Assembly (NCBI GenBank): GCA_964016885.1
Contig: CAXHJY010000254.1
Coordinates: 137,092 to 201,091 of the forward strand
DNA from: Eledone cirrhosa
Lineage: Eukaryota
Reading direction: 5' to 3'
Length of the DNA stretch: 64,000 nucleotides
Both the position numbers and the translations under genes were made by a program. Below are positions 628 to 15,589 of this stretch, piece by piece. Under the pieces are notes generated by a model. It ran no database searches. It saw only the letters and a program-made list of their open reading frames with translations, and was not told the origin of the DNA. Every line of letters starts with the position of its first letter. Within the stretch, counting starts at the first letter, position 1.

Positions 628-709
<82 letters not shown>

Positions 710-710
710 G

Positions 711-743
<33 letters not shown>

Positions 744-750
744 GTATATA

Positions 751-904
<154 letters not shown>

Positions 905-940
905 TATATATATGTATATATACATATATATATATATGTA

Positions 941-1250
941 TGGAGAGGTAAATATTCATATTATATTTTTTAATGTATTTTAAAAAATTGATTGAATTTT
1001 ACTTGTTCTGCTTATCTTAATATTAAAGTTCTGGTGTATCAAATTAATACCATTGAACAACCTTGAATCATAGACAACCTATGTATTTCTGGGGGTACCT
1101 AGTATCCCTGGACATATTAACTTCAATCTTTTCTCCGTCCGTTGAGAACAATCCTGTTGCTCTATATAGCTGCTATTTTTTTAGTAGTAATTGTAGACAG
1201 CAAGTCTTTGATTTTCCCGCTTTTACTTCGGTCCAGTTTACATACGGGTC
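941..1250 (+). mobile_element. Truncated PLE-type non-coding tail, same family as 35929-36200
   Basis: Colinear similarity to 35929-36200 (aggtaaatatt...gaattttacttgttctgctta...aatcatagaca...gggggtac), which lies downstream of a partial HHR. Confidence 0.6.
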
Positions 1251-1291
1251 ATGTGTGTGTGTGTGTATCTGTGTATATGTATATGTGTATG

Positions 1292-1374
<83 letters not shown>

Positions 1375-2163
1375 GTGTATATGTATTGTATATGTATGTA
1401 TGTATGTATGTGTGTATGTATGTGTGTGTACATGAATATATATTTATATTTATATATATTTATATATTTTTTATATATGTGTGTGTGTTTTTATGTGTGT
1501 ATATGTGTTTGTGTGTGTGTTTATTGTTGCGCGTAAGTGTGTGAGTGAGTATGTGTTTTTTTGTTTTTTTGTGAATGTGTCTGTTGATTTTTGGCATATA
1601 GTTGATTAGTTTAAGAGAAGTTCGAAGATAATAGTAAGATATGCACTCAGTATTTTGAATCTGTCTGCAGAATTCTCTAGACCTTTGTCACTTAGTAGAA
1701 CCTTAATGACTTTAGCTTTTAAAGAATCTCCCTTTTCTTTAATTCTATCGACCATGACTGACCCCCCCACTGACTTTATAGACATCTGTTAGCTTAAGAG
1801 AAACTTATTGACAAGGAATGGTATGCCATCCGGAACCTGTTTATAGAATTCTGTCTGCCTTTGTTACTCTAAAAACATAAATAAATAAAAATAAAAATAA
1901 AAATAAACTATAGCTTTGTAGAATTAGCTTTTAATGAATTCCCTTTTCTATCAACAGATGACCTGCACCCATCCCACTCCCCACCCTCTCCTACCACTTG
2001 TAGAGACCTATAAATACCATATTTATTTTTTGATACCCAGATTCCTGATGATTTCTAATGAATGAAACAGTTCTAGTCCTGTAGAATCTCTTCTATATTA
2101 AAACTGTTATACTCTGCTATGTATTGAGTACCTTACTTACTGTGGTTACCTCCGATTCAACCC
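1251..2163 (+). mobile_element. Heterologous pseudo-LTR (pLTR) fused to the first Naiad-A copy
   Basis: TG/TA microsatellite, unique AT-rich sequence, a TATA-like box and an HHR. It occupies the same position relative to the ORF as 4631-5741 does for copy 2 but is different in sequence. Confidence 0.7.
2039..2089 (+). ncRNA. Type I hammerhead ribozyme (compact)
   Basis: AGAUUC-CUGAUGA-U UUC(UAAU)GAA U-GAA-ACAG(UUCUAGUC)CUGU-A-GAAUCU. Stem I is 6 bp, the core is intact, and the predicted cleavage is GUA after 2083. Confidence 0.88.
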
Positions 2164-2308
2164 GGAACTACAACTGGAACCGTCGAGCAAACTCTACGTG
2201 AGCTGATAATCTACTGTGTGTAATATTTATATTACAACACAACGGAAAATACTGTATATTTACCTCCTGTAAAGTCGAGCAACCCACACAGCAAACGCAA
2301 CCACAACA

Positions 2309-4630
2309 ATGGAAAAACACTACCTGGATATGTCACTCAAAAACATACCAATCCAAGGTAGAAAGGAATATTTATTGAGTATGATTAAAAAAACTAATGA
2401 ATTCATTCGACGTGTCAGGTGGAAAACGCTCCACTATGATAGAAGCCGTATGAACTCAACATTAGAAAGTGGTGTAAACAACAAATTCGGTTTTAGGACT
2501 TGTAAAAACCCACCCACCAACCCACTATTAGATGCATTTGAGCAGGACCTTATGAACTTAATCCTTAAAATTAAATTCAAAGGACGCAACACCAACAGCA
2601 AATTACAGAAAGATATAAAAAAACTACTGGACGACCTTAAAAACACCAAAGGAATTGTAGTAAAAGCGGACAAAACATCAAACCTGTACACTATGGATTG
2701 CACTACATACAACAACTTCATTCGAAAAGAATTACATAAAAAATATAGAAAAACGAGTGAAGTAACCCTTAAGCACATCAATGATGAGGCATGCGAAATA
2801 GTGAAAAATCTCGGAATCGAAGATAGGACAGGACCACTCTTACCGGCGGTACCCACCTTCAATCTTAAGGACCACAAGGTAAACTTTGATAATGACCCTA
2901 AAATTAGATTAATCTGCCCCTCTAAATCAGATATAGGTAAAATAAGCAAATATATCTTAGATAGAATCATCCCCCAAATTAAGGCTAAGGTTAACATTAA
3001 ACTCTGGGGGAAGACCCAAGAAGCAATAAGATGGTTTAATAGCATTAGCAATAAGAATAAATCTAAGTTTATCCAGTTTGATATCGATGAATATTACTCA
3101 TCGATATCACCTGAAACTTTGAATAGAGCCATTAAGTTTGCTAAGGATAACTCTGACCTTACAAACGATGAAATTAAGATTATATTAGAAGCTAGGAAAA
3201 CTATAGTCAAATTTGAGAACAGTTATTGGGTACGTAAAGATAGACCCTCTAACTTTGACATAACAATGGGCTCTAACGATTCGGCGGAAATAACTGATAT
3301 TGTGGGGTTATTTATCGCCTTTAGACTCCAGGAAAAATTCAGCAATCTCCACGGCGGAATATACCGCGACGATGTTCTCCTCCTAGCTAAAAACCTTAAT
3401 AACCAAAAACTAGAAAAACTACGCAAAGATATAAGAAAACTACTACTCGAAATAGGACTAACTATAACATATGAATACAACCTTAAAGTAGTTAACTTCC
3501 TGGATGTCACACTCAATTTAAACTCTGGTTTGATTAAACCGTTTCATAAATTGAATGAAAATCTCAAATACATAAATGTTGGGTCTAACCACCCCATCTC
3601 TATAATTAAATCTATCCCTAAAAATATTTCCCTTAGAATCTCGGGTCTATCTTCTAACATACAAGTATTTAAGGAACACGCCGAGTACTACGATAACGCC
3701 CTTAGTAAAGCAGGCTACCTCAACAAAATAGAGTACATAGATGGGAACAATCAAAACACCCAAAATAAATCCCACATAGGTAGATATAATAACACAACAC
3801 CAAACCACACTTACTACCATAGTATGCACACCAGTAAACCAACAAACAAAACTAATAGAAAGCGATGCAAAGAGTACTTATGGTATAACCCCGAATACAA
3901 TAGTTCCATTAGTACAAATTTACCAGTACTCTTCTTTAAAATAATTAAAAGACATTTTCCCACATCACACAAATACCACAAAATCCTAAACCCTACCACT
4001 ATAAGACTGTCATACTCTACAGCGTTAAACCTTGAACAACACATAAAAAAGATCAATACTAGAAGGTTAAACGAAAACACTAAGAACTTAAGTACAAAGA
4101 ACACAAAAAAAACAGTAAACAATACACTACAGAACATAAATAAACCACACCTAAGTTCGTCCGCAATACTACTCCAGAGAAAACCCAACGTACACAACTG
4201 TAACTGCACCTATCCTGACAACTGCCCCCTCGGCAATAACTGCCTGGAAAAAAATATTATTTATAAGTGTACCATTAAATCCGGAGGCAACGAGTGGTAT
4301 TACGTGGGATCAACGGCAACATCGTTTAAATCTCGATTGTATAGGCATTCTTACTCAATAAAACACCAGAGCCAAAGAAATGTAACAACTTTAGCAGAAA
4401 AAGCTTGGACGGTCAGGGATAGCGATCAAAAGTTTACCCTAAAATGGGAAAAATTAGCTAAAACCCAAAGCTTTTCCAGGAGCCAAAATTTCTGCAAATT
4501 GTGTAATCTTGAGATTTATTACATAATCACACACAAGAAGAAACTGCTGAATAACAGAATTGAACGAACATTATTCTGCCGTCACAGAACTAAAACCCTT
4601 TTTTCCCACTACAAGCCGAATATTACATAA
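2309..4630 (+). CDS. PLE polyprotein: reverse transcriptase plus C-terminal GIY-YIG endonuclease (Naiad-like), 773 aa
   Basis: ADKT, KDHK, IRLI, QFDIDEYYSSI, ITMGS, YRDD, VNFLDVTL, NHP and WYNP motifs, a CNC-x4-CPL-x3-C linker, IIYKC...YVGST...FKSRLYRH, and CKLCNLE. Confidence 0.93.
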   Translation: MEKHYLDMSLKNIPIQGRKEYLLSMIKKTNEFIRRVRWKTLHYDRSRMNSTLESGVNNKFGFRTCKNPPTNPLLDAFEQDLMNLILKIKFKGRNTNSKLQKDIKKLLDDLKNTKGIVVKADKTSNLYTMDCTTYNNFIRKELHKKYRKTSEVTLKHINDEACEIVKNLGIEDRTGPLLPAVPTFNLKDHKVNFDNDPKIRLICPSKSDIGKISKYILDRIIPQIKAKVNIKLWGKTQEAIRWFNSISNKNKSKFIQFDIDEYYSSISPETLNRAIKFAKDNSDLTNDEIKIILEARKTIVKFENSYWVRKDRPSNFDITMGSNDSAEITDIVGLFIAFRLQEKFSNLHGGIYRDDVLLLAKNLNNQKLEKLRKDIRKLLLEIGLTITYEYNLKVVNFLDVTLNLNSGLIKPFHKLNENLKYINVGSNHPISIIKSIPKNISLRISGLSSNIQVFKEHAEYYDNALSKAGYLNKIEYIDGNNQNTQNKSHIGRYNNTTPNHTYYHSMHTSKPTNKTNRKRCKEYLWYNPEYNSSISTNLPVLFFKIIKRHFPTSHKYHKILNPTTIRLSYSTALNLEQHIKKINTRRLNENTKNLSTKNTKKTVNNTLQNINKPHLSSSAILLQRKPNVHNCNCTYPDNCPLGNNCLEKNIIYKCTIKSGGNEWYYVGSTATSFKSRLYRHSYSIKHQSQRNVTTLAEKAWTVRDSDQKFTLKWEKLAKTQSFSRSQNFCKLCNLEIYYIITHKKKLLNNRIERTLFCRHRTKTLFSHYKPNIT

Positions 4631-4897
4631 AAGAGGGACATCCCCCAACTATATAAACCTTAATCTAGTTAGAAAAATATAAAAACAATCTCTTCTCAAC
4701 ATATATTAATAACCTTAAATTACCACACTAATAATGGAAAGATATGCTGATGAGAATAGGTACAAATATGCGATAATGAATGTGTCTAAAAACGTCCATA
4801 AGTATGTATATATATGTAAAAATGTATATAAATAAGTAAATATATATATATGTTTGATGTGTATAGTTAGATGTAAGTGTATTCATGTATTAAAGTG

Positions 4898-5006
<109 letters not shown>

Positions 5007-5562: not shown

Positions 5563-5682
5563 TTATTCTGATGAAATGACAGTAAATAATAACATTGAAA
5601 TATTGAATGTCTGCATAACTAAAAGTTTGTAGATAGCAGCTGTTTTAGGTTATGTAACTGTTATAGAAACACGTGTCAATAA
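5563..5682 (+). ncRNA. Type I hammerhead ribozyme with ~91-nt expanded stem II (Naiad-A pLTR)
   Basis: UUAUU-CUGAUGA-A AUGACAGU...ACUGUUAU A-GAA-AC(ACGU)GU-C-AAUAA. The stem III region ACACGUGU is palindromic. GUC cleavage after 5677. Confidence 0.85.
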
Positions 5683-5886
5683 ATTCCTTTCAACTAAACT
5701 GTATCCATTCAAATCTTTCTACTTTTCTCCGGATTACTTTTGGAACTACAACTGGAACCGTCGAGCAAACTCTACGTGAGCTGATAATCTACTGTGTGTA
5801 ATATTTATATTACAACACAACGGAAAATACTGTATATTTACCTCCTGTAAAGTCGAGCAACCCACACAGCAAACGCAACCACAACA

Positions 5887-8208
5887 ATGGAAAAACACTA
5901 CCTGGATATGTCACTCAAAAACATACCAATCCAAGGTAGAAAGGAATATTTATTGAGTATGATTAAAAAAACTAATGAATTCATTCGACGTGTCAGGTGG
6001 AAAACGCTCCACTATGATAGAAGCCGTATGAACTCAACATTAGAAAGTGGTGTAAACAACAAATTCGGTTTTAGGACTTGTAAAAACCCACCCACCAACC
6101 CACTATTAGATGCATTTGAGCAGGACCTTATGAACTTAATCCTTAAAATTAAATTCAAAGGACGCAACACCAACAGCAAATTACAGAAAGATATAAAAAA
6201 ACTACTGGACGACCTTAAAAACACCAAAGGAATTGTAGTAAAAGCGGACAAAACATCAAACCTGTACACTATGGATTGCACTACATACAACAACTTCATT
6301 CGAAAAGAATTACATAAAAAATATAGAAAAACGAGTGAAGTAACCCTTAAGCACATCAATGATGAGGCATGCGAAATAGTGAAAAATCTCGGAATCGAAG
6401 ATAGGACAGGACCACTCTTACCGGCGGTACCCACCTTCAATCTTAAGGACCACAAGGTAAACTTTGATAATGACCCTAAAATTAGATTAATCTGCCCCTC
6501 TAAATCAGATATAGGTAAAATAAGCAAATATATCTTAGATAGAATCATCCCCCAAATTAAGGCTAAGGTTAACATTAAACTCTGGGGGAAGACCCAAGAA
6601 GCAATAAGATGGTTTAATAGCATTAGCAATAAGAATAAATCTAAGTTTATCCAGTTTGATATCGATGAATATTACTCATCGATATCACCTGAAACTTTGA
6701 ATAGAGCCATTAAGTTTGCTAAGGATAACTCTGACCTTACAAACGATGAAATTAAGATTATATTAGAAGCTAGGAAAACTATAGTCAAATTTGAGAACAG
6801 TTATTGGGTACGTAAAGATAGACCCTCTAACTTTGACATAACAATGGGCTCTAACGATTCGGCGGAAATAACTGATATTGTGGGGTTATTTATCGCCTTT
6901 AGACTCCAGGAAAAATTCAGCAATCTCCACGGCGGAATATACCGCGACGATGTTCTCCTCCTAGCTAAAAACCTTAATAACCAAAAACTAGAAAAACTAC
7001 GCAAAGATATAAGAAAACTACTACTCGAAATAGGACTAACTATAACATATGAATACAACCTTAAAGTAGTTAACTTCCTGGATGTCACACTCAATTTAAA
7101 CTCTGGTTTGATTAAACCGTTTCATAAATTGAATGAAAATCTCAAATACATAAATGTTGGGTCTAACCACCCCATCTCTATAATTAAATCTATCCCTAAA
7201 AATATTTCCCTTAGAATCTCGGGTCTATCTTCTAACATACAAGTATTTAAGGAACACGCCGAGTACTACGATAACGCCCTTAGTAAAGCAGGCTACCTCA
7301 ACAAAATAGAGTACATAGATGGGAACAATCAAAACACCCAAAATAAATCCCACATAGGTAGATATAATAACACAACACCAAACCACACTTACTACCATAG
7401 TATGCACACCAGTAAACCAACAAACAAAACTAATAGAAAGCGATGCAAAGAGTACTTATGGTATAACCCCGAATACAATAGTTCCATTAGTACAAATTTA
7501 CCAGTACTCTTCTTTAAAATAATTAAAAGACATTTTCCCACATCACACAAATACCACAAAATCCTAAACCCTACCACTATAAGACTGTCATACTCTACAG
7601 CGTTAAACCTTGAACAACACATAAAAAAGATCAATACTAGAAGGTTAAACGAAAACACTAAGAACTTAAGTACAAAGAACACAAAAAAAACAGTAAACAA
7701 TACACTACAGAACATAAATAAACCACACCTAAGTTCGTCCGCAATACTACTCCAGAGAAAACCCAACGTACACAACTGTAACTGCACCTATCCTGACAAC
7801 TGCCCCCTCGGCAATAACTGCCTGGAAAAAAATATTATTTATAAGTGTACCATTAAATCCGGAGGCAACGAGTGGTATTACGTGGGATCAACGGCAACAT
7901 CGTTTAAATCTCGATTGTATAGGCATTCTTACTCAATAAAACACCAGAGCCAAAGAAATGTAACAACTTTAGCAGAAAAAGCTTGGACGGTCAGGGATAG
8001 CGATCAAAAGTTTACCCTAAAATGGGAAAAATTAGCTAAAACCCAAAGCTTTTCCAGGAGCCAAAATTTCTGCAAATTGTGTAATCTTGAGATTTATTAC
8101 ATAATCACACACAAGAAGAAACTGCTGAATAACAGAATTGAACGAACATTATTCTGCCGTCACAGAACTAAAACCCTTTTTTCCCACTACAAGCCGAATA
8201 TTACATAA
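5887..8208 (+). CDS. PLE polyprotein RT plus GIY-YIG (Naiad-like), second identical copy
   Basis: Protein identical to 2309-4630 in the ORF track. Confidence 0.93.
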   Translation: MEKHYLDMSLKNIPIQGRKEYLLSMIKKTNEFIRRVRWKTLHYDRSRMNSTLESGVNNKFGFRTCKNPPTNPLLDAFEQDLMNLILKIKFKGRNTNSKLQKDIKKLLDDLKNTKGIVVKADKTSNLYTMDCTTYNNFIRKELHKKYRKTSEVTLKHINDEACEIVKNLGIEDRTGPLLPAVPTFNLKDHKVNFDNDPKIRLICPSKSDIGKISKYILDRIIPQIKAKVNIKLWGKTQEAIRWFNSISNKNKSKFIQFDIDEYYSSISPETLNRAIKFAKDNSDLTNDEIKIILEARKTIVKFENSYWVRKDRPSNFDITMGSNDSAEITDIVGLFIAFRLQEKFSNLHGGIYRDDVLLLAKNLNNQKLEKLRKDIRKLLLEIGLTITYEYNLKVVNFLDVTLNLNSGLIKPFHKLNENLKYINVGSNHPISIIKSIPKNISLRISGLSSNIQVFKEHAEYYDNALSKAGYLNKIEYIDGNNQNTQNKSHIGRYNNTTPNHTYYHSMHTSKPTNKTNRKRCKEYLWYNPEYNSSISTNLPVLFFKIIKRHFPTSHKYHKILNPTTIRLSYSTALNLEQHIKKINTRRLNENTKNLSTKNTKKTVNNTLQNINKPHLSSSAILLQRKPNVHNCNCTYPDNCPLGNNCLEKNIIYKCTIKSGGNEWYYVGSTATSFKSRLYRHSYSIKHQSQRNVTTLAEKAWTVRDSDQKFTLKWEKLAKTQSFSRSQNFCKLCNLEIYYIITHKKKLLNNRIERTLFCRHRTKTLFSHYKPNIT

Positions 8209-8475
8209 AAGAGGGACATCCCCCAACTATATAAACCTTAATCTAGTTAGAAAAATATAAAAACAATCTCTTCTCAACATATATTAATAACCTTAAATTA
8301 CCACACTAATAATGGAAAGATATGCTGATGAGAATAGGTACAAATATGCGATAATGAATGTGTCTAAAAACGTCCATAAGTATGTATATATATGTAAAAA
8401 TGTATATAAATAAGTAAATATATATATATGTTTGATGTGTATAGTTAGATGTAAGTGTATTCATGTATTAAAGTG

Positions 8476-8566
<91 letters not shown>

Positions 8567-9122
8567 ATATGTGTATATGGATGTGTATGTATGTGTATGT
8601 GTGTACACATGGACTAGAGTATGTATGTATATATGTGTGTGTCTATACGTGTGTATATAAAGATAAGTTGAGTATGAAAATGTATACACATGAGCGCGTA
8701 TGTATGTACATGAATACATGTGTGTATATATATGTGTATGCATGTGTATATATATGTAAGTATGAATATGTGAATTGTGAGTATATGTATTTTGTAGAGG
8801 TGTGCAAATATATTTGTTTGTGAATGCGTGGGTGAAAGGATACGTACACTTGAAAGAAAAATTTAAGTCTGAATGTTAATTAAGTGCAAACACAAAACCA
8901 ACCACGCATATCTTTACTATCTCTAATCCTTCTATAGATTTAGAAAAATAACCAATAATATATTCTATAAAAAATGTCAAAACAACAGATGGGAATCTAA
9001 TTACTCACTGCCACCAAGAATTCTCACTGCTATCGAAAAACCACTCCTTCAACTATTCTTCTAACAACTTCACCCCTCCCTCCTAATATTCTCTATAAAA
9101 ACTAAATAGGTCCTCAGTAATA

Positions 9123-9242
9123 TTATTCTGATGAAATGACAGTAAATAATAACATTGAAATATTGAATGTCTGCATAACTAAAAGTTTGTAGATAGCAGC
9201 TGTTTTAGGTTATGTAACTGTTATAGAAACACGTATCAATAA
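9123..9242 (+). ncRNA. Hammerhead ribozyme copy in the terminal Naiad-A pLTR with a G>A change in stem III
   Basis: Same as 5563-5682 except acgtAtc instead of acgtGtc at 9235. Confidence 0.78.
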
Positions 9243-9276
9243 ATTCCTTTCAACTAAACTGTATCCATTCAAACCT

Positions 9277-9891
<615 letters not shown>

Positions 9892-10975: not shown

Positions 10976-13900
10976 AGGCCGCTCAAACAAGGTTGTAGAA
11001 ATGCTAGAACGTAAGGAGGTTGATGGCTGCTGCATCCAAGAGACCAGGTGGAGGGGCGGTTCTGCTAGATTCATTGTGGGTAAAAAACGATGCTATAAGC
11101 TTTTCTGGGTGGGAAATGACAATGGGCTGGGTGGGGTAGGAATCATGTTAGCAGAAAAATGGGTGGATAAGATAATAGACGTAAATAGAGTAAACGACAG
11201 AATAATTAAAATAAGACTTCTTCTAAATAGAACTACTGTGACGATAATATCTGCGTACGCGCCCCAATCCGGACTGCCTGGTGCTATAAAAGACACTTTC
11301 TATGAGACACTGATGCTCACTACATCCCAAATAACCGACACTGACTATATAATTATTGCTGGCGACCTAAATGGTCACGTTGGACAACATTGTGACGGCT
11401 ATGATGAAATCCATGGAGGCTATGGGTTTGGTACTAGAAATGAGGAAGGCTCCAGAATCCTGGAATTCTGTGACGCAAATAACCTAACAATCTGTAACAC
11501 TAACTTCAAAAAACGAGACAATCACTTGATCACCTACAGATCAGGGGAACATACCAGCCAGGTAGATTATATCCTTACCAGAAGACGTGACAGAGTGACT
11601 GTTGTAAACACTAAATCCCTCCCCCATGAAGAATGCACCTCCCAACATAGACTGATAATTAGCGACCTCATAGTCAGGACGAGACGTACTCGACAGCAGA
11701 AGAGGACTATCCTCAGGAGAAAAATATGGAAGCTAAAGGACCCCACAGCCAGAAATAAATTTCAAAGCATATTACTTGATGCTTTCGACAGTAAGGAAGA
11801 GCATTTAGAGTCGGATATTATAGAGGGACAGTGGGAATTCCTGAAAGCAAACCTGCTGATGGCGGCAGACGAAGTCTGTGGCCGGAGCAGGCCTATAGGC
11901 AGGAGGAGAGTAACATGGTGGTGGAAAAGTAAGGTGGAGGAGTCGATTAAGGCCAAAATGCAGGCTTGGAAAGTATGGCGGGATGGGGGAAGTAGAGAAG
12001 ACTATCAAGTGGCCAGGAGGGAAGCTAGGAGACAAGTGCACTTCGCAAGAAGGGAAGCAGAGGAAAGAAAGTTCAAGCATGTTCTACAACGCGAGGACCA
12101 AAAACGTGAGGTGTTCAGGATTGCCAGGTAATGTGTCAAGGAAAACCGTGATATTGTCGGGAAGAAGTGTGTCCGTAATGATGATGGCGTACTTGCCATC
12201 ACTGACGCGGATAAGAAGGTAGCTTGGAAGTGTCACTACGAAAGGCTACTAAATGAGGAGAATAAATGGGAGAACGACAGTCTCCCCCACATCGACCCAA
12301 TAGAGGGACCAGCAGTGCAAGTTGAAGGTAGTATAACAAGTAAGGCGATCAAAGACATGAAGACGGGCAAGGCGGCCGGGCCTTCGCAAATAGTTGCCGA
12401 AATGCTGAAAGCATCTGGAACGGTGGGACACAATATGGTCACCCGGATAGTAAACCAAGTCATACAGAATGGGGTCGTTCTGAAGGACTGGCGCAGCAGC
12501 ATCATCATTAACTGCTACAAGGGTAAAGGTGATGCCCTAGATAGGGGAAACTATAGAGGCATTAAATTAATTGACCAGGTCATGAAGGTCACAGAAAAAG
12601 TAATAGCGCAACTAATCAGAGAGAGAATTGATCTAGACGAAATGCAGTTCGGGTTCGTGTCAGGTAAAAGTACAACAGACGCTCTTTTCATTGTGCGACA
12701 ACTACAGGAGAAGTACCTAGCTAAAAGTAAACCCCTATACTTAGCTTTTGTTGACTTGGAGAAAGCCTTTGACAGAGTACCCCGCTCGATTATCTGGTGG
12801 GCCCTTAGAAAACTAGTTGGTGATGAATGGCTTGTGAGAGCTATACAAGCCATGTATAAAGAAACAGTCAGCAAGGTTAGAATTAACAACGAATATAGTG
12901 AAGAGTTTAGCGTAAAAGTTGGTGTTCATCAGGGTTCCGTCCTTAGCCCACTACTATTTATTATTGCCCTTCAGGCTATAACAGAGGAGTTCAAGACCGG
13001 CTGCCCATGGGAACTCCTATATGCAGATGATCTAACGCTCATAGCTGAATCAATGGCTGAACTAGAGAAGAAATTCCAAACATGGAAGCATGGCCTAGAA
13101 TCAAATGGCCTTAAAGTTAACTTGTCTAAGACTAAAGTTCTAGTTTGTAGGAAGGAAAATAGGGCACCGGTCCCATCTGGGAAATGGCCGTGTTCAGTGT
13201 GTAGGAAAGGAGTAGGTAGAAACTCCATTTTATGTCCCAAATGCAAAGTATGGGTACATAAAAGATATAGTGGGATCACAGGTAAGCTAACTAAGAATAT
13301 AGATTTTATATGTGGTCGGTGCTCTGGTGCAATAAGTAGCAGCAAGTGCCCACAGAATACTAACTCATTCCATTGCACAGATGGTTCTATAGAAATAGTG
13401 GACAGCTTCCGTTACTTGGGTGATATAATCAGCAGTGGGGGAGGGTGCTCTGAAAGTACAGTAGCTAGAATCATAACGGGATGGAAAAAGTTCAGAGAGC
13501 TTATACCACTATTGGCCGCTAAAGGGTTCTCGCTAAAAATGAAAGGCAGGCTGTATGATGCCTGCATACGAACAGCAATGTTACATGGCAGTGAGACCTG
13601 GGCATTGTGTGCAGAGGATATACGTAGACTGGAGAGAAACGAAGCTTGCATGCTCCGCTGGATGTGTAATAGTAATATACGTGAACGGCAAAGCATAAAC
13701 GAACGAAGGGAGAAATTAGAAATAAGAGGGATCAGATGTTGTTTACTCGAGAGAAGGCTACGTTGGTACGGTCACGTGATGCGCATGAAAGACGACAGCT
13801 GTATAAAAAAGTGCAGGGCAATAAAATTAGACGGTAGCCACGGAGTAGGCAGACCCCCAAAAACCTGGGACGACTTGATAAATTCCGACCTCACACACTT

Positions 13901-14370
13901 ACACCTCTCCAGGACAAGTCACTGGACCGAGATCTTTGGCGCTACACAGTAATAGAGAAGACCCGCCTTACTTAAGTGCAAAGTGAAACCTACTACAGTC
14001 AGTAGGCACCTCTAACAAAATACACCCCCGTCCCACTACCCCCACCCCATCCACACCACCCCTTTCAATGTAAAGTTATGTTGGTACCACAACATCCAGC
14101 CCGAAACAAATGAGGTCGTGTAGGTGTCACGACAAAAAAACACACGGTCCACACTGTAATGTGGCCGTGTAGGTAACACAGTAAAAACCTCCCAGTCCAC
14201 ACTGTAAATGTGGTTGGTGTTAGGAAGGGCATCCAGCCGTAGAAAACCCGCCAGACAGTCCTATAAGAGCAAGACAACCACTCTTGCCTCAAGTGGGAAA
14301 ACTCCCGTCCAAACCCATGCAAGCGTGGAACATGGACGTTAAGCGAAGATGATGAGGATGAGATGATGAT
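10976..14370 (+). mobile_element. RTE-clade LINE, slightly 5'-truncated, with a degenerate (GAT)n tail
   Basis: APE endonuclease and RT in one frame, a 3' UTR and a GAT-repeat tail. Both flanks are TA repeats. Confidence 0.9.
11001..13975 (+). pseudogene. RTE LINE APE-RT polyprotein, disrupted
   Basis: APE motifs QETRW, YAPQ, GDLNGH, QVDYIL and SQHRL. RT motifs NYRGI, QFGF, FVDLEKAFD, GVHQGSVLSP and YADD. An in-frame TAA at 12129-12131 separates two same-frame ORFs. A probable frameshift near 13910 hides the ...LDRDLWRYTV... C-terminus. Confidence 0.88.
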
Positions 14371-14452: not shown

Positions 14453-14800
14453 ATCATCATCATTCATCATCATTTCATTTTACGTCCGCTTTTCCCTGCT
14501 TGCAAGGGTGGGACGGGAACTGATTCTGGCTTGATTTCTACAGCTGGATGCCCTTCCTAACACCAACCTCATTTACAGTGAATGCTGGGTGCTTTTTTGC
14601 CGTGGCACCTCCACGACTACTTTGTAGTGGAATGATAGGGACCCAAGTCCCTATCATCTCATTTCTACAGCTGAGTAAACTGGAGCAATGTGAAATAAAG
14701 TGTCTTGCTCAAGGAAACAACACATCACCCGGTCTGAGAATTGAACTCACAACATTTCGATTGCAAGGCCAATGCTCTAACCACTAAGCCATGTGCCTCC
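14453..14800 (-). mobile_element. tRNA-derived CORE-like SINE with RTE-derived 3' tail
   Basis: A box TGGCTTAGTGG, B-box-like GAGTTCAATTC, CORE-like CCTTGAGCAAGACACTT, a 3' part similar to the RTE 3' UTR, and an ATG-repeat tail. Confidence 0.85.
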
Positions 14801-14836
14801 ATATATATATGTATATGTATATACATATATATATAT

Positions 14837-15162
14837 GGAGGCACATGGCTTAGTGGTTAGAGCATTGGCCTTGCAATCGAAAGGTTGTGAGTTCAATTCT
14901 CAGACTGGGTGATGTGTTGTTTCCTTGAACAAGACACTTTATTTCACATTGCTCCAGTTTACTCAGCTGTAGAAATGAGATGATAGGGACTGGTGTCCAT
15001 ATCATTCCACTGCAAAGTGGTCGTGCAGGTGCCACGCAAAAAAGCACCCAGCACTCACTGTAAATGAGGTTGGTGTTAGTAAGGGCATCCAGCTGTAGAT
15101 GTTAAGCCAGAACCAGTTCCCGTCCCACCCTTGCAAGCAGGGAAAAAGCAGACGTAAAATGA
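14837..15162 (+). mobile_element. tRNA-derived CORE-like SINE with RTE-derived 3' tail (second copy, opposite orientation)
   Basis: Reverse-complement homologue of 14453-14800 with scattered substitutions. Confidence 0.85.
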
Positions 15163-15434: not shown

Positions 15435-15589
15435 TTCATTATTTAACGATCGTTTCTAGGATATATATGTGTTAGAATTGGTATGCATATTCAACAGATC
15501 TATGTACAAAATTATACAAAATTATACAAATTATCAAGATTAAATATACATACCAAACACATATATACGCCGTCTTCAGAAATAATGAA
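15435..15589 (-). ncRNA. Type I hammerhead ribozyme with ~116-nt stem II (Naiad-B)
   Basis: UUCAUUAUUU-CUGAAGA-long hairpin-GAA-AC(GAUC)GU-U-AAAUAAUGAA. Stem I is 10 bp, with palindrome AACGATCGTT. Confidence 0.85.

What the first reader, a model, noticed from the sequence alone, without database searches (positions are those of the whole stretch)
1251..2200. pLTR swap: an identical Naiad ORF sits behind two unrelated ribozyme modules
Seen: copies 1 and 2 of family A are identical from ggaactacaactgg (2164 and 5742) onward. Upstream, copy 1 has a different sequence with a compact GUA-cleaving HHR, while copy 2 has the family's own large-stem-II GUC HHR. The join lies 81 and 65 nt after the respective cleavage sites, at weakly similar sequence (ctccgatt / ctccggatt). 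Inference: an RT template switch or recombination between two PLE families at the homologous position, exchanging the promoter/ribozyme cassette as a module.
Basis: partly seen in the sequence, partly recalled or inferred. Interest (0 to 1): 0.75.

Follow-up and report, generated by a model that had tools for sequence, protein, structure and literature searches.

The report
One-off patchwork of three Penelope elements
A young Penelope-type jumping gene is fused, at four shared letters and at a single place in the genome, to the tail end of a different Penelope family, which is itself fused to a piece of a third, non-coding element; it likely landed beside an older copy and trimmed it, so this is a by-product of insertion and not a ribozyme cassette swap that spread.

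Summary
The join is in the assembly as described; the reading is mostly not supported. Window 2164-4980 equals 5742-8558 (2,817 bp). The ORF has Hydra-clade motifs, not Naiad. The upstream module (1252-2167) is the ordinary 3' end of a second Hydra-type family, C (own 713-aa ORF elsewhere, 40% identical). It meets family A at a shared GGAA, 5-9 nt short of C's normal end. The junction occurs once in 3 Gb; 1,321 sites keep A's own upstream sequence; no reciprocal product was found. The site is not homologous by any anchor, and the upstream likeness is chance-level (P=0.27). In 126 other A insertions, 6 have such a direct foreign 5' join (3 to PLE or retrozyme sequence). Best reading: A inserted into the (TA)n behind an older C end, with microhomology trimming (0.52); rival: template switching between RNAs in one event (0.38). 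No read bridged the junction in six runs, which probably lack this locus. The scan has noted similar one-off PLE composites on other DNA.

The parts
629..941 (.). Degenerate (TA)n tract at the left edge of the composite
   Evidence: sequence
942..1251 (+). Fragment of family D, a ~485-bp tandem, non-coding hammerhead (retrozyme-like) repeat; starts 10 nt after D's predicted cleavage site, runs through both normal D 3' ends (about 1020 and 1128) and breaks at a non-canonical point
   Evidence: 2,162 candidates, best others 98%, 485-bp tandem arrays; continuation and hammerhead motif in other copies
1252..1560 (+). Inner (TG)n/(TA)n microsatellite of family C; D/C join has 1 nt shared (A1251)
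   Evidence: aligns to C unit positions 4227 onward
1561..2167 (+). 3' end / pLTR of family C, a Hydra-type PLE; short 3' end at 2105, long 3' end 5-9 nt beyond 2167 (missing here)
   Evidence: 1,436 candidates, 40 scored at 97-100%; ends followed by (TA)n, or by C's ORF in L019; 713-aa ORF in L063
2039..2089 (+). Compact type I hammerhead motif of C (predicted GUA cleavage after 2083; U-U at base of stem II; palindromic core in loop III)
   Evidence: pattern scan; no Rfam hit; not the MFE fold
2164..2167 (+). C/A junction: 4-nt shared GGAA (6 of the first 8 nt agree)
   Evidence: single copy in genome
2164..5741 (+). Family A unit 1 (5'-truncated by 65 nt relative to the cleavage site), 3,578 bp
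2309..4630 (+). Open 773-aa Hydra-type ORF: RT then C-terminal GIY-YIG
   Evidence: no Pfam hit at E<=0.1
5563..5682 (+). Family A hammerhead motif with long stem II (predicted GUC cleavage after 5677)
5742..9281 (+). Family A unit 2, ORF 5887-8208, ending at A's short 3' end; terminal hammerhead has a private G>A at 9234
9282..9890 (.). (TA)n tract at the right edge (A's target)
   Evidence: sequence

Best explanation
A Hydra-type Penelope-like dimer (family A) is joined through a shared GGAA to the 3' end of a second family (C), likely because A inserted into the (TA)n tract behind an older C copy and its 5' end annealed a few bases inside C, removing the TA tract and 5-9 nt of C. Shown: anatomy, family identities, microhomology, single copy. 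Inferred: A's endonuclease cut the (TA)n, reverse transcription began at A's short internal start (9281) and ran through two units to about 2164; the 5' junction was closed by microhomology-mediated joining (during insertion, or by a later small deletion, which would look the same). The D/C join would be an earlier event of the same kind with a larger loss of D. The product could place ORF A behind C's promoter region, but C would not be inherited as a pLTR, because A's repeating unit and 3' end are intact and a circle cut at the two different ribozymes would pair A's 5' stem-I arm with C's 3' arm, which do not match.
For: The break lies 5-9 nt from C's normal long end, out of a 5,175-bp unit: expected if C's end was the target flank, unlikely for a random switch. 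PLE and retrozyme ends stacked at one TA tract are common here (e.g. L009, L016, L026, L167). In 126 other A insertions, 6 have a direct foreign 5' join with no TA left (6 of 40 once inversions, flank copies and one ambiguous case are set aside); 4 of the 6 partners look like resident DNA (frameshifted old PLE RT in L209, antisense interior of an RTE LINE in L257, unassigned sequence in L163 and L268). In L162 the foreign Hydra element's two arms differ by 20/765 while the A piece has 2 rare changes in 492 (P=0.045 if same age). Nearest-relative identity falls in the nesting order: A 99.7%, C 99.3%, D 98%. Literature: a Penelope 5' junction by microhomology without TSD in Adineta (PMC3846280, passage); 0-20-bp target deletions with microhomology at truncated L1 5' ends (PMC11702581, passages).
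Against: Needs two independent TA-erasing joins in a row, both to same-strand PLE-type partners (only 2 of 126 surveyed insertions have a same-strand PLE partner); the D/C join needs loss of about 250 nt of D plus TA. The age test in the window itself is inconclusive: A's pLTRs carry 1 and 2 rare changes per 492 bp, C 3 substitutions in 564, D 2-3 in 305. No empty or C-only allele was found: the left flank marker is single-copy in the assembly. D begins 10 nt after its predicted cleavage site, as a cDNA run to the end of a self-cut RNA would (but other D copies also begin near there).
Confidence: 0.52

Rival explanations
1. One insertion event with two template switches: reverse transcription started on A RNA, and the cDNA end then primed on C RNA (close to C's own internal start site) and later on D RNA, before closing on the left (TA)n. 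A DNA template for C or D is a variant of this.
For: Three pieces, all same strand, no TA between them, one TA tract at each outer edge. 4-nt microhomology, 6 of 8. D starts 10 nt after its predicted cleavage site. L171 has A head-to-head with a hammerhead repeat that ends normally at TA, as if two RNAs primed the two target ends. Four of 126 insertions have 5' fillers copied from neighbouring flank DNA (L169, L174, L211, L236), so these 5' ends do switch templates. Two-transcript and tripartite insertions are described for LINEs (PMC11702581 passages; PMC2104539 abstract). PLE RT starts internally at non-homologous sites (PMC11167929, parts 1-2 of 4 read).
Against: A plain switch has no reason to fall within 9 nt of C's end (about 0.4% of the unit), so the untested extra step 'second RNP primes at its usual start' is needed; the D break is not at a D end. 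No other C copy with the window's AG allele at 1956-1957 exists in the assembly, though A's source is missing too. Most surveyed foreign partners look like resident DNA.
Confidence: 0.38
2. Assembly or chimeric-read artefact on an unplaced 201-kb contig.
For: The window is the end of small contig C281. No contig or read piece spanning the join was listed in X1, X2, X3, X7, X21, X22. The two ORF regions show 0 differences in 2,817 bp while the pLTRs differ at 3 of 492; a control dimer (L073) has 5 in its body (P=0.006), which could reflect polishing.
Against: Similar foreign joins occur in 6 of 126 insertions on the largest chromosome; the join sits on microhomology near a biological end; an overlap assembler does not join on 4 nt (own knowledge). 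X1-X3 lack the window's private alleles (e.g. no depth for T2352 or A1166), so they probably do not carry the locus and cannot test it.
Confidence: 0.06
3. One reading: exchange of the promoter/ribozyme cassette between two PLE families at a homologous position, creating a new heritable configuration.
For: Both breaks lie between ribozyme and ORF start, inside each family's tail; copy 1 keeps an open ORF behind C's ribozyme region.
Against: Single copy; 1,321 sites with A's own upstream vs 5 with a non-T base, of which only the window is foreign; reciprocal pattern gave one hit, an A copy with a 3-nt deletion; anchors do not correspond and likeness is chance-level; A's 3' pLTR is unchanged.
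Confidence: 0.04

Closest known systems
Hydra clade of C-terminal EN+ Penelope-like elements (Craig et al. 2021, PMC8557442; passages read)
   Same: RWK/RWR, DKT, CxCX5C linker, CxxC and CxH motifs, C-terminal GIY-YIG, hammerhead motif in pLTR, (TA)n target, partial tandems, inverted arms and tail
   Different: Passages seen describe same-family tandems and inversions, not cross-family chains; tail here is about 119 nt (A) and about 65 nt (C) rather than 30-40 bp
Penelope 5' junction by microhomology and secondary insertion of Pen2a into Pen3 in Adineta vaga (PMC3846280; passages and Conclusions read)
   Same: PLE 5' end joined without TSD by microhomology; one PLE family inserting in another
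   Different: That paper reports no cross-mobilisation between its PLE types; here three PLE-type pieces abut with no target DNA between them
LINE chimeras and 5'-truncated insertions with target deletion (PMC11702581, passages; tripartite WEIRD/Mg-SINE/MGL chimera, PMC2104539, abstract only)
   Same: Same-strand fusion of pieces from different RNAs, or short target deletion, with microhomology; tripartite form
   Different: Those have TSDs or known pre-insertion sites that decide the mechanism; here the (TA)n target hides any TSD
Terminon/Athena head-to-tail telomeric arrays (PMC6431247, passages)
   Same: Chains of 5'-truncated, hammerhead-bearing PLE units, head to tail
   Different: Endonuclease-deficient, telomeric, separated by telomeric repeats; this is an interstitial endonuclease-bearing PLE composite
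Animal non-LTR retrozymes (PMC7229834 passages; bioRxiv 10.64898/2026.07.22.740005 part 1 of 5)
   Same: Family D: short tandem non-coding repeat with a type I hammerhead motif
   Different: Unit is 485 bp (somewhat above 150-450 bp) and only a ribozyme-less fragment is present in the window

Membership tests
Naiad PLE | N-terminal GIY-YIG before the RT | tested here: not met
   RT motifs (YRDD near aa 352) precede the linker and GIY-YIG (aa ~630-670)
Naiad PLE | DKA motif; no canonical hammerhead | tested here: not met
   DKT in A, C and B; hammerhead-type motifs present
Hydra PLE | C-terminal GIY-YIG, single ORF | tested here: met
   773-aa (A) and 713-aa (C) single ORFs
Hydra PLE | RWK and DKT motifs | tested here: met
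   RWK/DKT in A, RWR/DKT in C
Hydra PLE | CxCX5C linker; CxxC and CxH near the C-terminus | tested here: met
   CNCTYPDNC, CKLC, CRH in A; CNCLNKEAC, CDLC, CMH in C
Hydra PLE | Hammerhead in pLTR and (TA)n target | tested here: met
   motif scan (cleavage itself untested); 3' ends at (TA)n
Hydra PLE | Phylogenetic placement with named Hydra families | not tested
   no reference Hydra sequences were fetched; no tree built
Template-switch chimera (single event) | One TSD or one pre-insertion site enclosing all pieces | tested here: inconclusive
   (TA)n on both sides hides TSD; no second allele in the assembly
Template-switch chimera (single event) | All pieces of the same age | tested here: inconclusive
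   rare-variant counts overlap; nearest-copy identity ordered A>C>D
Propagating chimeric PLE family | Same junction at several loci | tested here: not met
   1 match with up to 1 mismatch in 3.0 Gb
Non-LTR retrozyme (family D) | Tandem non-coding repeat with type I hammerhead | tested here: met
   485-bp arrays, motif seen in L081; no Rfam hammerhead hit
Non-LTR retrozyme (family D) | Self-cleavage and circular RNA | not testable with these tools
   no RNA holder listed (queried on C/A only)

The most novel reading that the evidence does not exclude
Endonuclease-bearing Penelope-like elements prime on each other: the 3' end of one element's cDNA serves as primer for the ribonucleoprotein of another family at that family's own internal start site, so single insertions become cross-family chains (here retrozyme D + family C + family A dimer), an interstitial counterpart of Terminon chains. 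With about 5% foreign 5' joins among some 2,000 A insertions, dozens of such chains would exist in this genome, and some would put an intact ORF under a foreign pLTR.
Probability: 0.3. Interest if true: 0.55.

Novelty: new member of a known kind. Interest (0 to 1): 0.25.

Why it matters
As a single locus it matters little: it is a dead-end composite. Its use is as one of many natural records of how PLE 5' ends are closed, a step not yet worked out experimentally (PMC11167929 leaves it open). The survey gives a first rough split for one Hydra family: 81 inversions, 34 TA joins, 4 flank copies, 6 foreign joins, 1 ambiguous of 126. If part of the foreign joins are RNA-to-RNA hand-overs between families, PLE reverse transcriptases would be less family-faithful than the Adineta analysis concluded, and pLTRs and ribozymes would have a route to change partners.

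Tried and rejected
Read support: one run search (no RNA holder listed) and two layings (X1, X2, X3, X21, then X1, X2, X7, X22; 6 of 23 listed runs) showed only each family's native continuation at 2164/2167 and no listed bridging piece; tables are truncated and the runs appear to lack this locus, so this is not evidence either way. Empty-site search: both flanks are high-copy repeats; the only unique flank marker has one copy. Splicing as source of the join: no GT/AG at any position allowed by the microhomology (sequence). RNA ligation at ribozyme cuts: joins are 81 and 65 nt away from the predicted sites. Local donors: no C copy in the rest of the window or the 10 kb before it, and only a 78% D relative at 35.8-36.2 kb. 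Hotspot at 2164: two other A copies break at this base (L098 inversion, L099 TA), against roughly 0.6-1 expected by my estimate, not significant. Rfam and Pfam did not recognise the A/C/D hammerheads or the Hydra ORFs. Simple tandem duplication of a monomer cannot give the dimer, because 5722-5741 exists only in the internal copy. Literature searches listed no paper on cross-family chains of endonuclease-bearing PLEs; one search returned only irrelevant papers, and subscription journals and supplements (none opened) were not covered.

Full report
OBSERVATION. The window is the last 64 kb of a 201-kb contig (G000:C281) of a 3.0-Gb assembly. Positions 2164-4980 equal 5742-8558 exactly and the identity does not extend leftwards. 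Upstream of each copy my motif scan finds a type I hammerhead-like motif (core consensus recalled from general knowledge): a compact one with predicted GUA cleavage after 2083 and a long-stem-II one with predicted GUC cleavage after 5677; the join is 81 and 65 nt downstream. The two upstream modules are unrelated (score 8.0; shuffles 8.2 +/- 3.7). Rfam does not recognise either motif and the compact one is not the monomer MFE, so ribozyme activity is predicted, not shown.

WHAT THE ORF IS. [quoted passage not shown] These are the Hydra features listed in PMC8557442 (passages); Naiads have an N-terminal endonuclease and lack canonical hammerheads. No tree was built. Family A has 2,941 exact matches to a 25-nt pLTR probe.

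WHAT THE UPSTREAM MODULE IS. 1600-2163 has 1,436 candidate copies, the 40 scored at 97-100%. Of the 30 fetched, 20 others reach position 563-564: 19 end a few bases later in (TA)n and one (L019) runs into an ORF; nine stop at or near a shorter end around 2105. That ORF is 713 aa, in a 5,175-bp unit, 40% identical to A, with the same Hydra motifs. So the module is the normal 3' end of a second family, C. C natively continues GGAA, the first four bases of the shared A stretch; the join is a 4-nt microhomology (6 of 8 nt agree), 5-9 nt before C's usual long end.

IS IT A SWAP? The junction 21-mer occurs once, allowing one mismatch. All 29 other fetched A starts carry A's own pLTR. Genome-wide, 1,321 sites have A's own upstream bases and 5 have a non-T base: the window, one self-inversion, one TA join, two point variants. 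Of 106 C ends with a non-T after GGAA, the 20 examined all end in (TA)n within a few bases. The reciprocal pattern hit only an A copy with a 3-nt deletion. The breaks do not correspond: 81/65 nt from cleavage, 59/21 from the short end, 56/145 from the ATG; the ctccg(g)att likeness is reached by 26.7% of 4,000 random pairs. A lead from earlier scan notes (paired hairpins about six bases past each end) fits only partly: C folds a hairpin at 2110-2130 just past its short end and A has hairpins past both ends, which again places the two breaks at non-equivalent points. Since a pLTR is the 3' end of the preceding unit, and both A ORFs still end in A's pLTR, nothing in the repeating unit has been exchanged; a circle cut at the two ribozymes would have unmatched stem I arms.

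A THIRD PIECE. 942-1251 is not host DNA but a fragment of family D, with 2,162 candidates and 485-bp tandem arrays and a hammerhead-type motif in complete copies. It begins 10 nt after D's predicted cleavage site, passes D's two normal ends (about 1020 and 1128) and joins C's inner microsatellite with 1 nt shared. The composite is (TA)n-D-C-A-A-(TA)n, all on one strand.

HOW COMMON. I classified 5' junctions of 126 other A insertions on contig C1: 66 of the 67 insertions behind the first 100 of 2,941 matches (one was fetched on the wrong side and redone in the second set), and 60 loci in the second set, 59 of them from the first 100 of 1,321 matches (three listed sites not fetched; this set is biased to copies with the long tail). 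Script classes were corrected by eye: 81 self-inversions, 34 joins to TA or simple repeat (10 moved here or to inversions from 'other' or 'edge' classes are poor alignments, hits to other families or later inserts), 4 fillers copied from flanking DNA (L169, L174, L211, L236), 6 direct foreign joins and 1 ambiguous (L167). The six: L162 (same-strand ORF of another Hydra-type family), L171 (hammerhead repeat, head-to-head), L209 (old frameshifted PLE RT), L257 (antisense RTE LINE interior), L163 and L268 (unassigned). That is 4.8% (95% CI 1.8-10%), 2.4% for PLE/retrozyme partners, i.e. dozens genome-wide. A few loci may be duplicates of each other (L240/L241; L158 counted once).

MECHANISM. Nesting with trimming explains why the break hugs C's normal end and agrees with partners that look resident and, in L162, older than A (20/765 between the partner's arms vs 2/492 in A; P=0.045); it has precedent for Penelope (PMC3846280) and L1 (PMC11702581). 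It must, however, happen twice in a row. A single event with two template switches explains the chain, the common strand and D's start near its cleavage site, with LINE precedent (PMC2104539 abstract; PMC11702581), but needs the second element to be entered near its own start site; PLE RT does start internally (PMC11167929), so this is plausible and untested. The window's own age test does not decide (A pLTRs 1 and 2 rare changes per 492 bp; C 3 per 564; D 2-3 per 305). My rough weighing gives 0.52 versus 0.38. Reads did not test the join: six runs showed only native ends and X1-X3 lack the window's private alleles.

UNEXPLAINED. The two ORF regions have no difference in 2,817 bp and share private variants, while the pLTRs differ at 3 of 492 bp, about the average between arms of inverted A copies (120 in 22,900 bp over 70 pairs). 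A homologous switch to a second RNA from a source with two slightly different pLTRs, gene conversion, or assembly polishing could each do this.

VERDICT. Observation confirmed; interpretation partly supported. A one-off composite of Hydra-type PLE pieces, a new instance of a known kind of insertion by-product. Interest 0.25; the bolder reading (cross-family serial priming) has probability about 0.3 and would deserve 0.55. Supplements of the cited papers were not opened and might contain similar composites.

Noticed in passing
window 2025-2103 (reads): Reads and contigs jump back 75-77 nt around C's hammerhead and depth over 2059-2180 is 20-30 times that of the rest of C: a very high-copy ~77-nt tandem derivative made of little more than the ribozyme seems to exist.
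   Followed up: no
window 9234 and 9274: The terminal A pLTR has two private changes near its 3' end, one (G>A) in hammerhead stem III that breaks a pair next to the cleavage triplet; 0 of 38 other copies share it.
   Followed up: partly
window 2164-4980 vs 5742-8558: ORF regions identical while pLTRs differ at 3 sites and in TA length; unexplained asymmetry.
   Followed up: partly
window 15390-45070: Family B, a third Hydra-type PLE (48% to A), in tandem and inverted copies, with a GUU hammerhead motif with a 116-nt stem II region at 15579, 22807, 30053 (-) and 35106 (+).
   Followed up: partly
window 61169-61240 (-): Another hammerhead motif (Rfam HH9, 38.6 bits, below gathering score).
   Followed up: no
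window 10977-13952: RTE-like LINE (endonuclease, RT, PHD-like finger) split by one in-frame stop at 12129-12131; a second LINE at 53169-57376.
   Followed up: no
window 14464-15158: Long inverted pair of a repeat around a (TA)n centre; and a high-copy element starting at 9891 directly after the TA tract (1,194 candidates).
   Followed up: no
L169, L174, L211, L236: A 5' ends joined to 30-350-nt copies of DNA flanking nearby TA tracts, mostly inverted: DNA-templated filler at PLE 5' junctions.
   Followed up: partly
L214 (2216-7105): Inverted element of another Hydra-type family whose right arm is cut inside the ORF and ends in family A's pLTR: the closest thing to a true 3' pLTR replacement seen, but the ORF lacks its endonuclease.
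   Followed up: partly
L242 (590-773), L164 (748-1699): Later insertions inside A copies: a SINE-like piece with a short direct repeat of A sequence on both sides, and an element of the kind seen at window 9891.
   Followed up: no
L062 6180-7470 and 9800-9870: Just before the window, a further PLE 3' fragment with the CxCX5C-type linker and a second element end with a hammerhead-like motif (read by eye).
   Followed up: no
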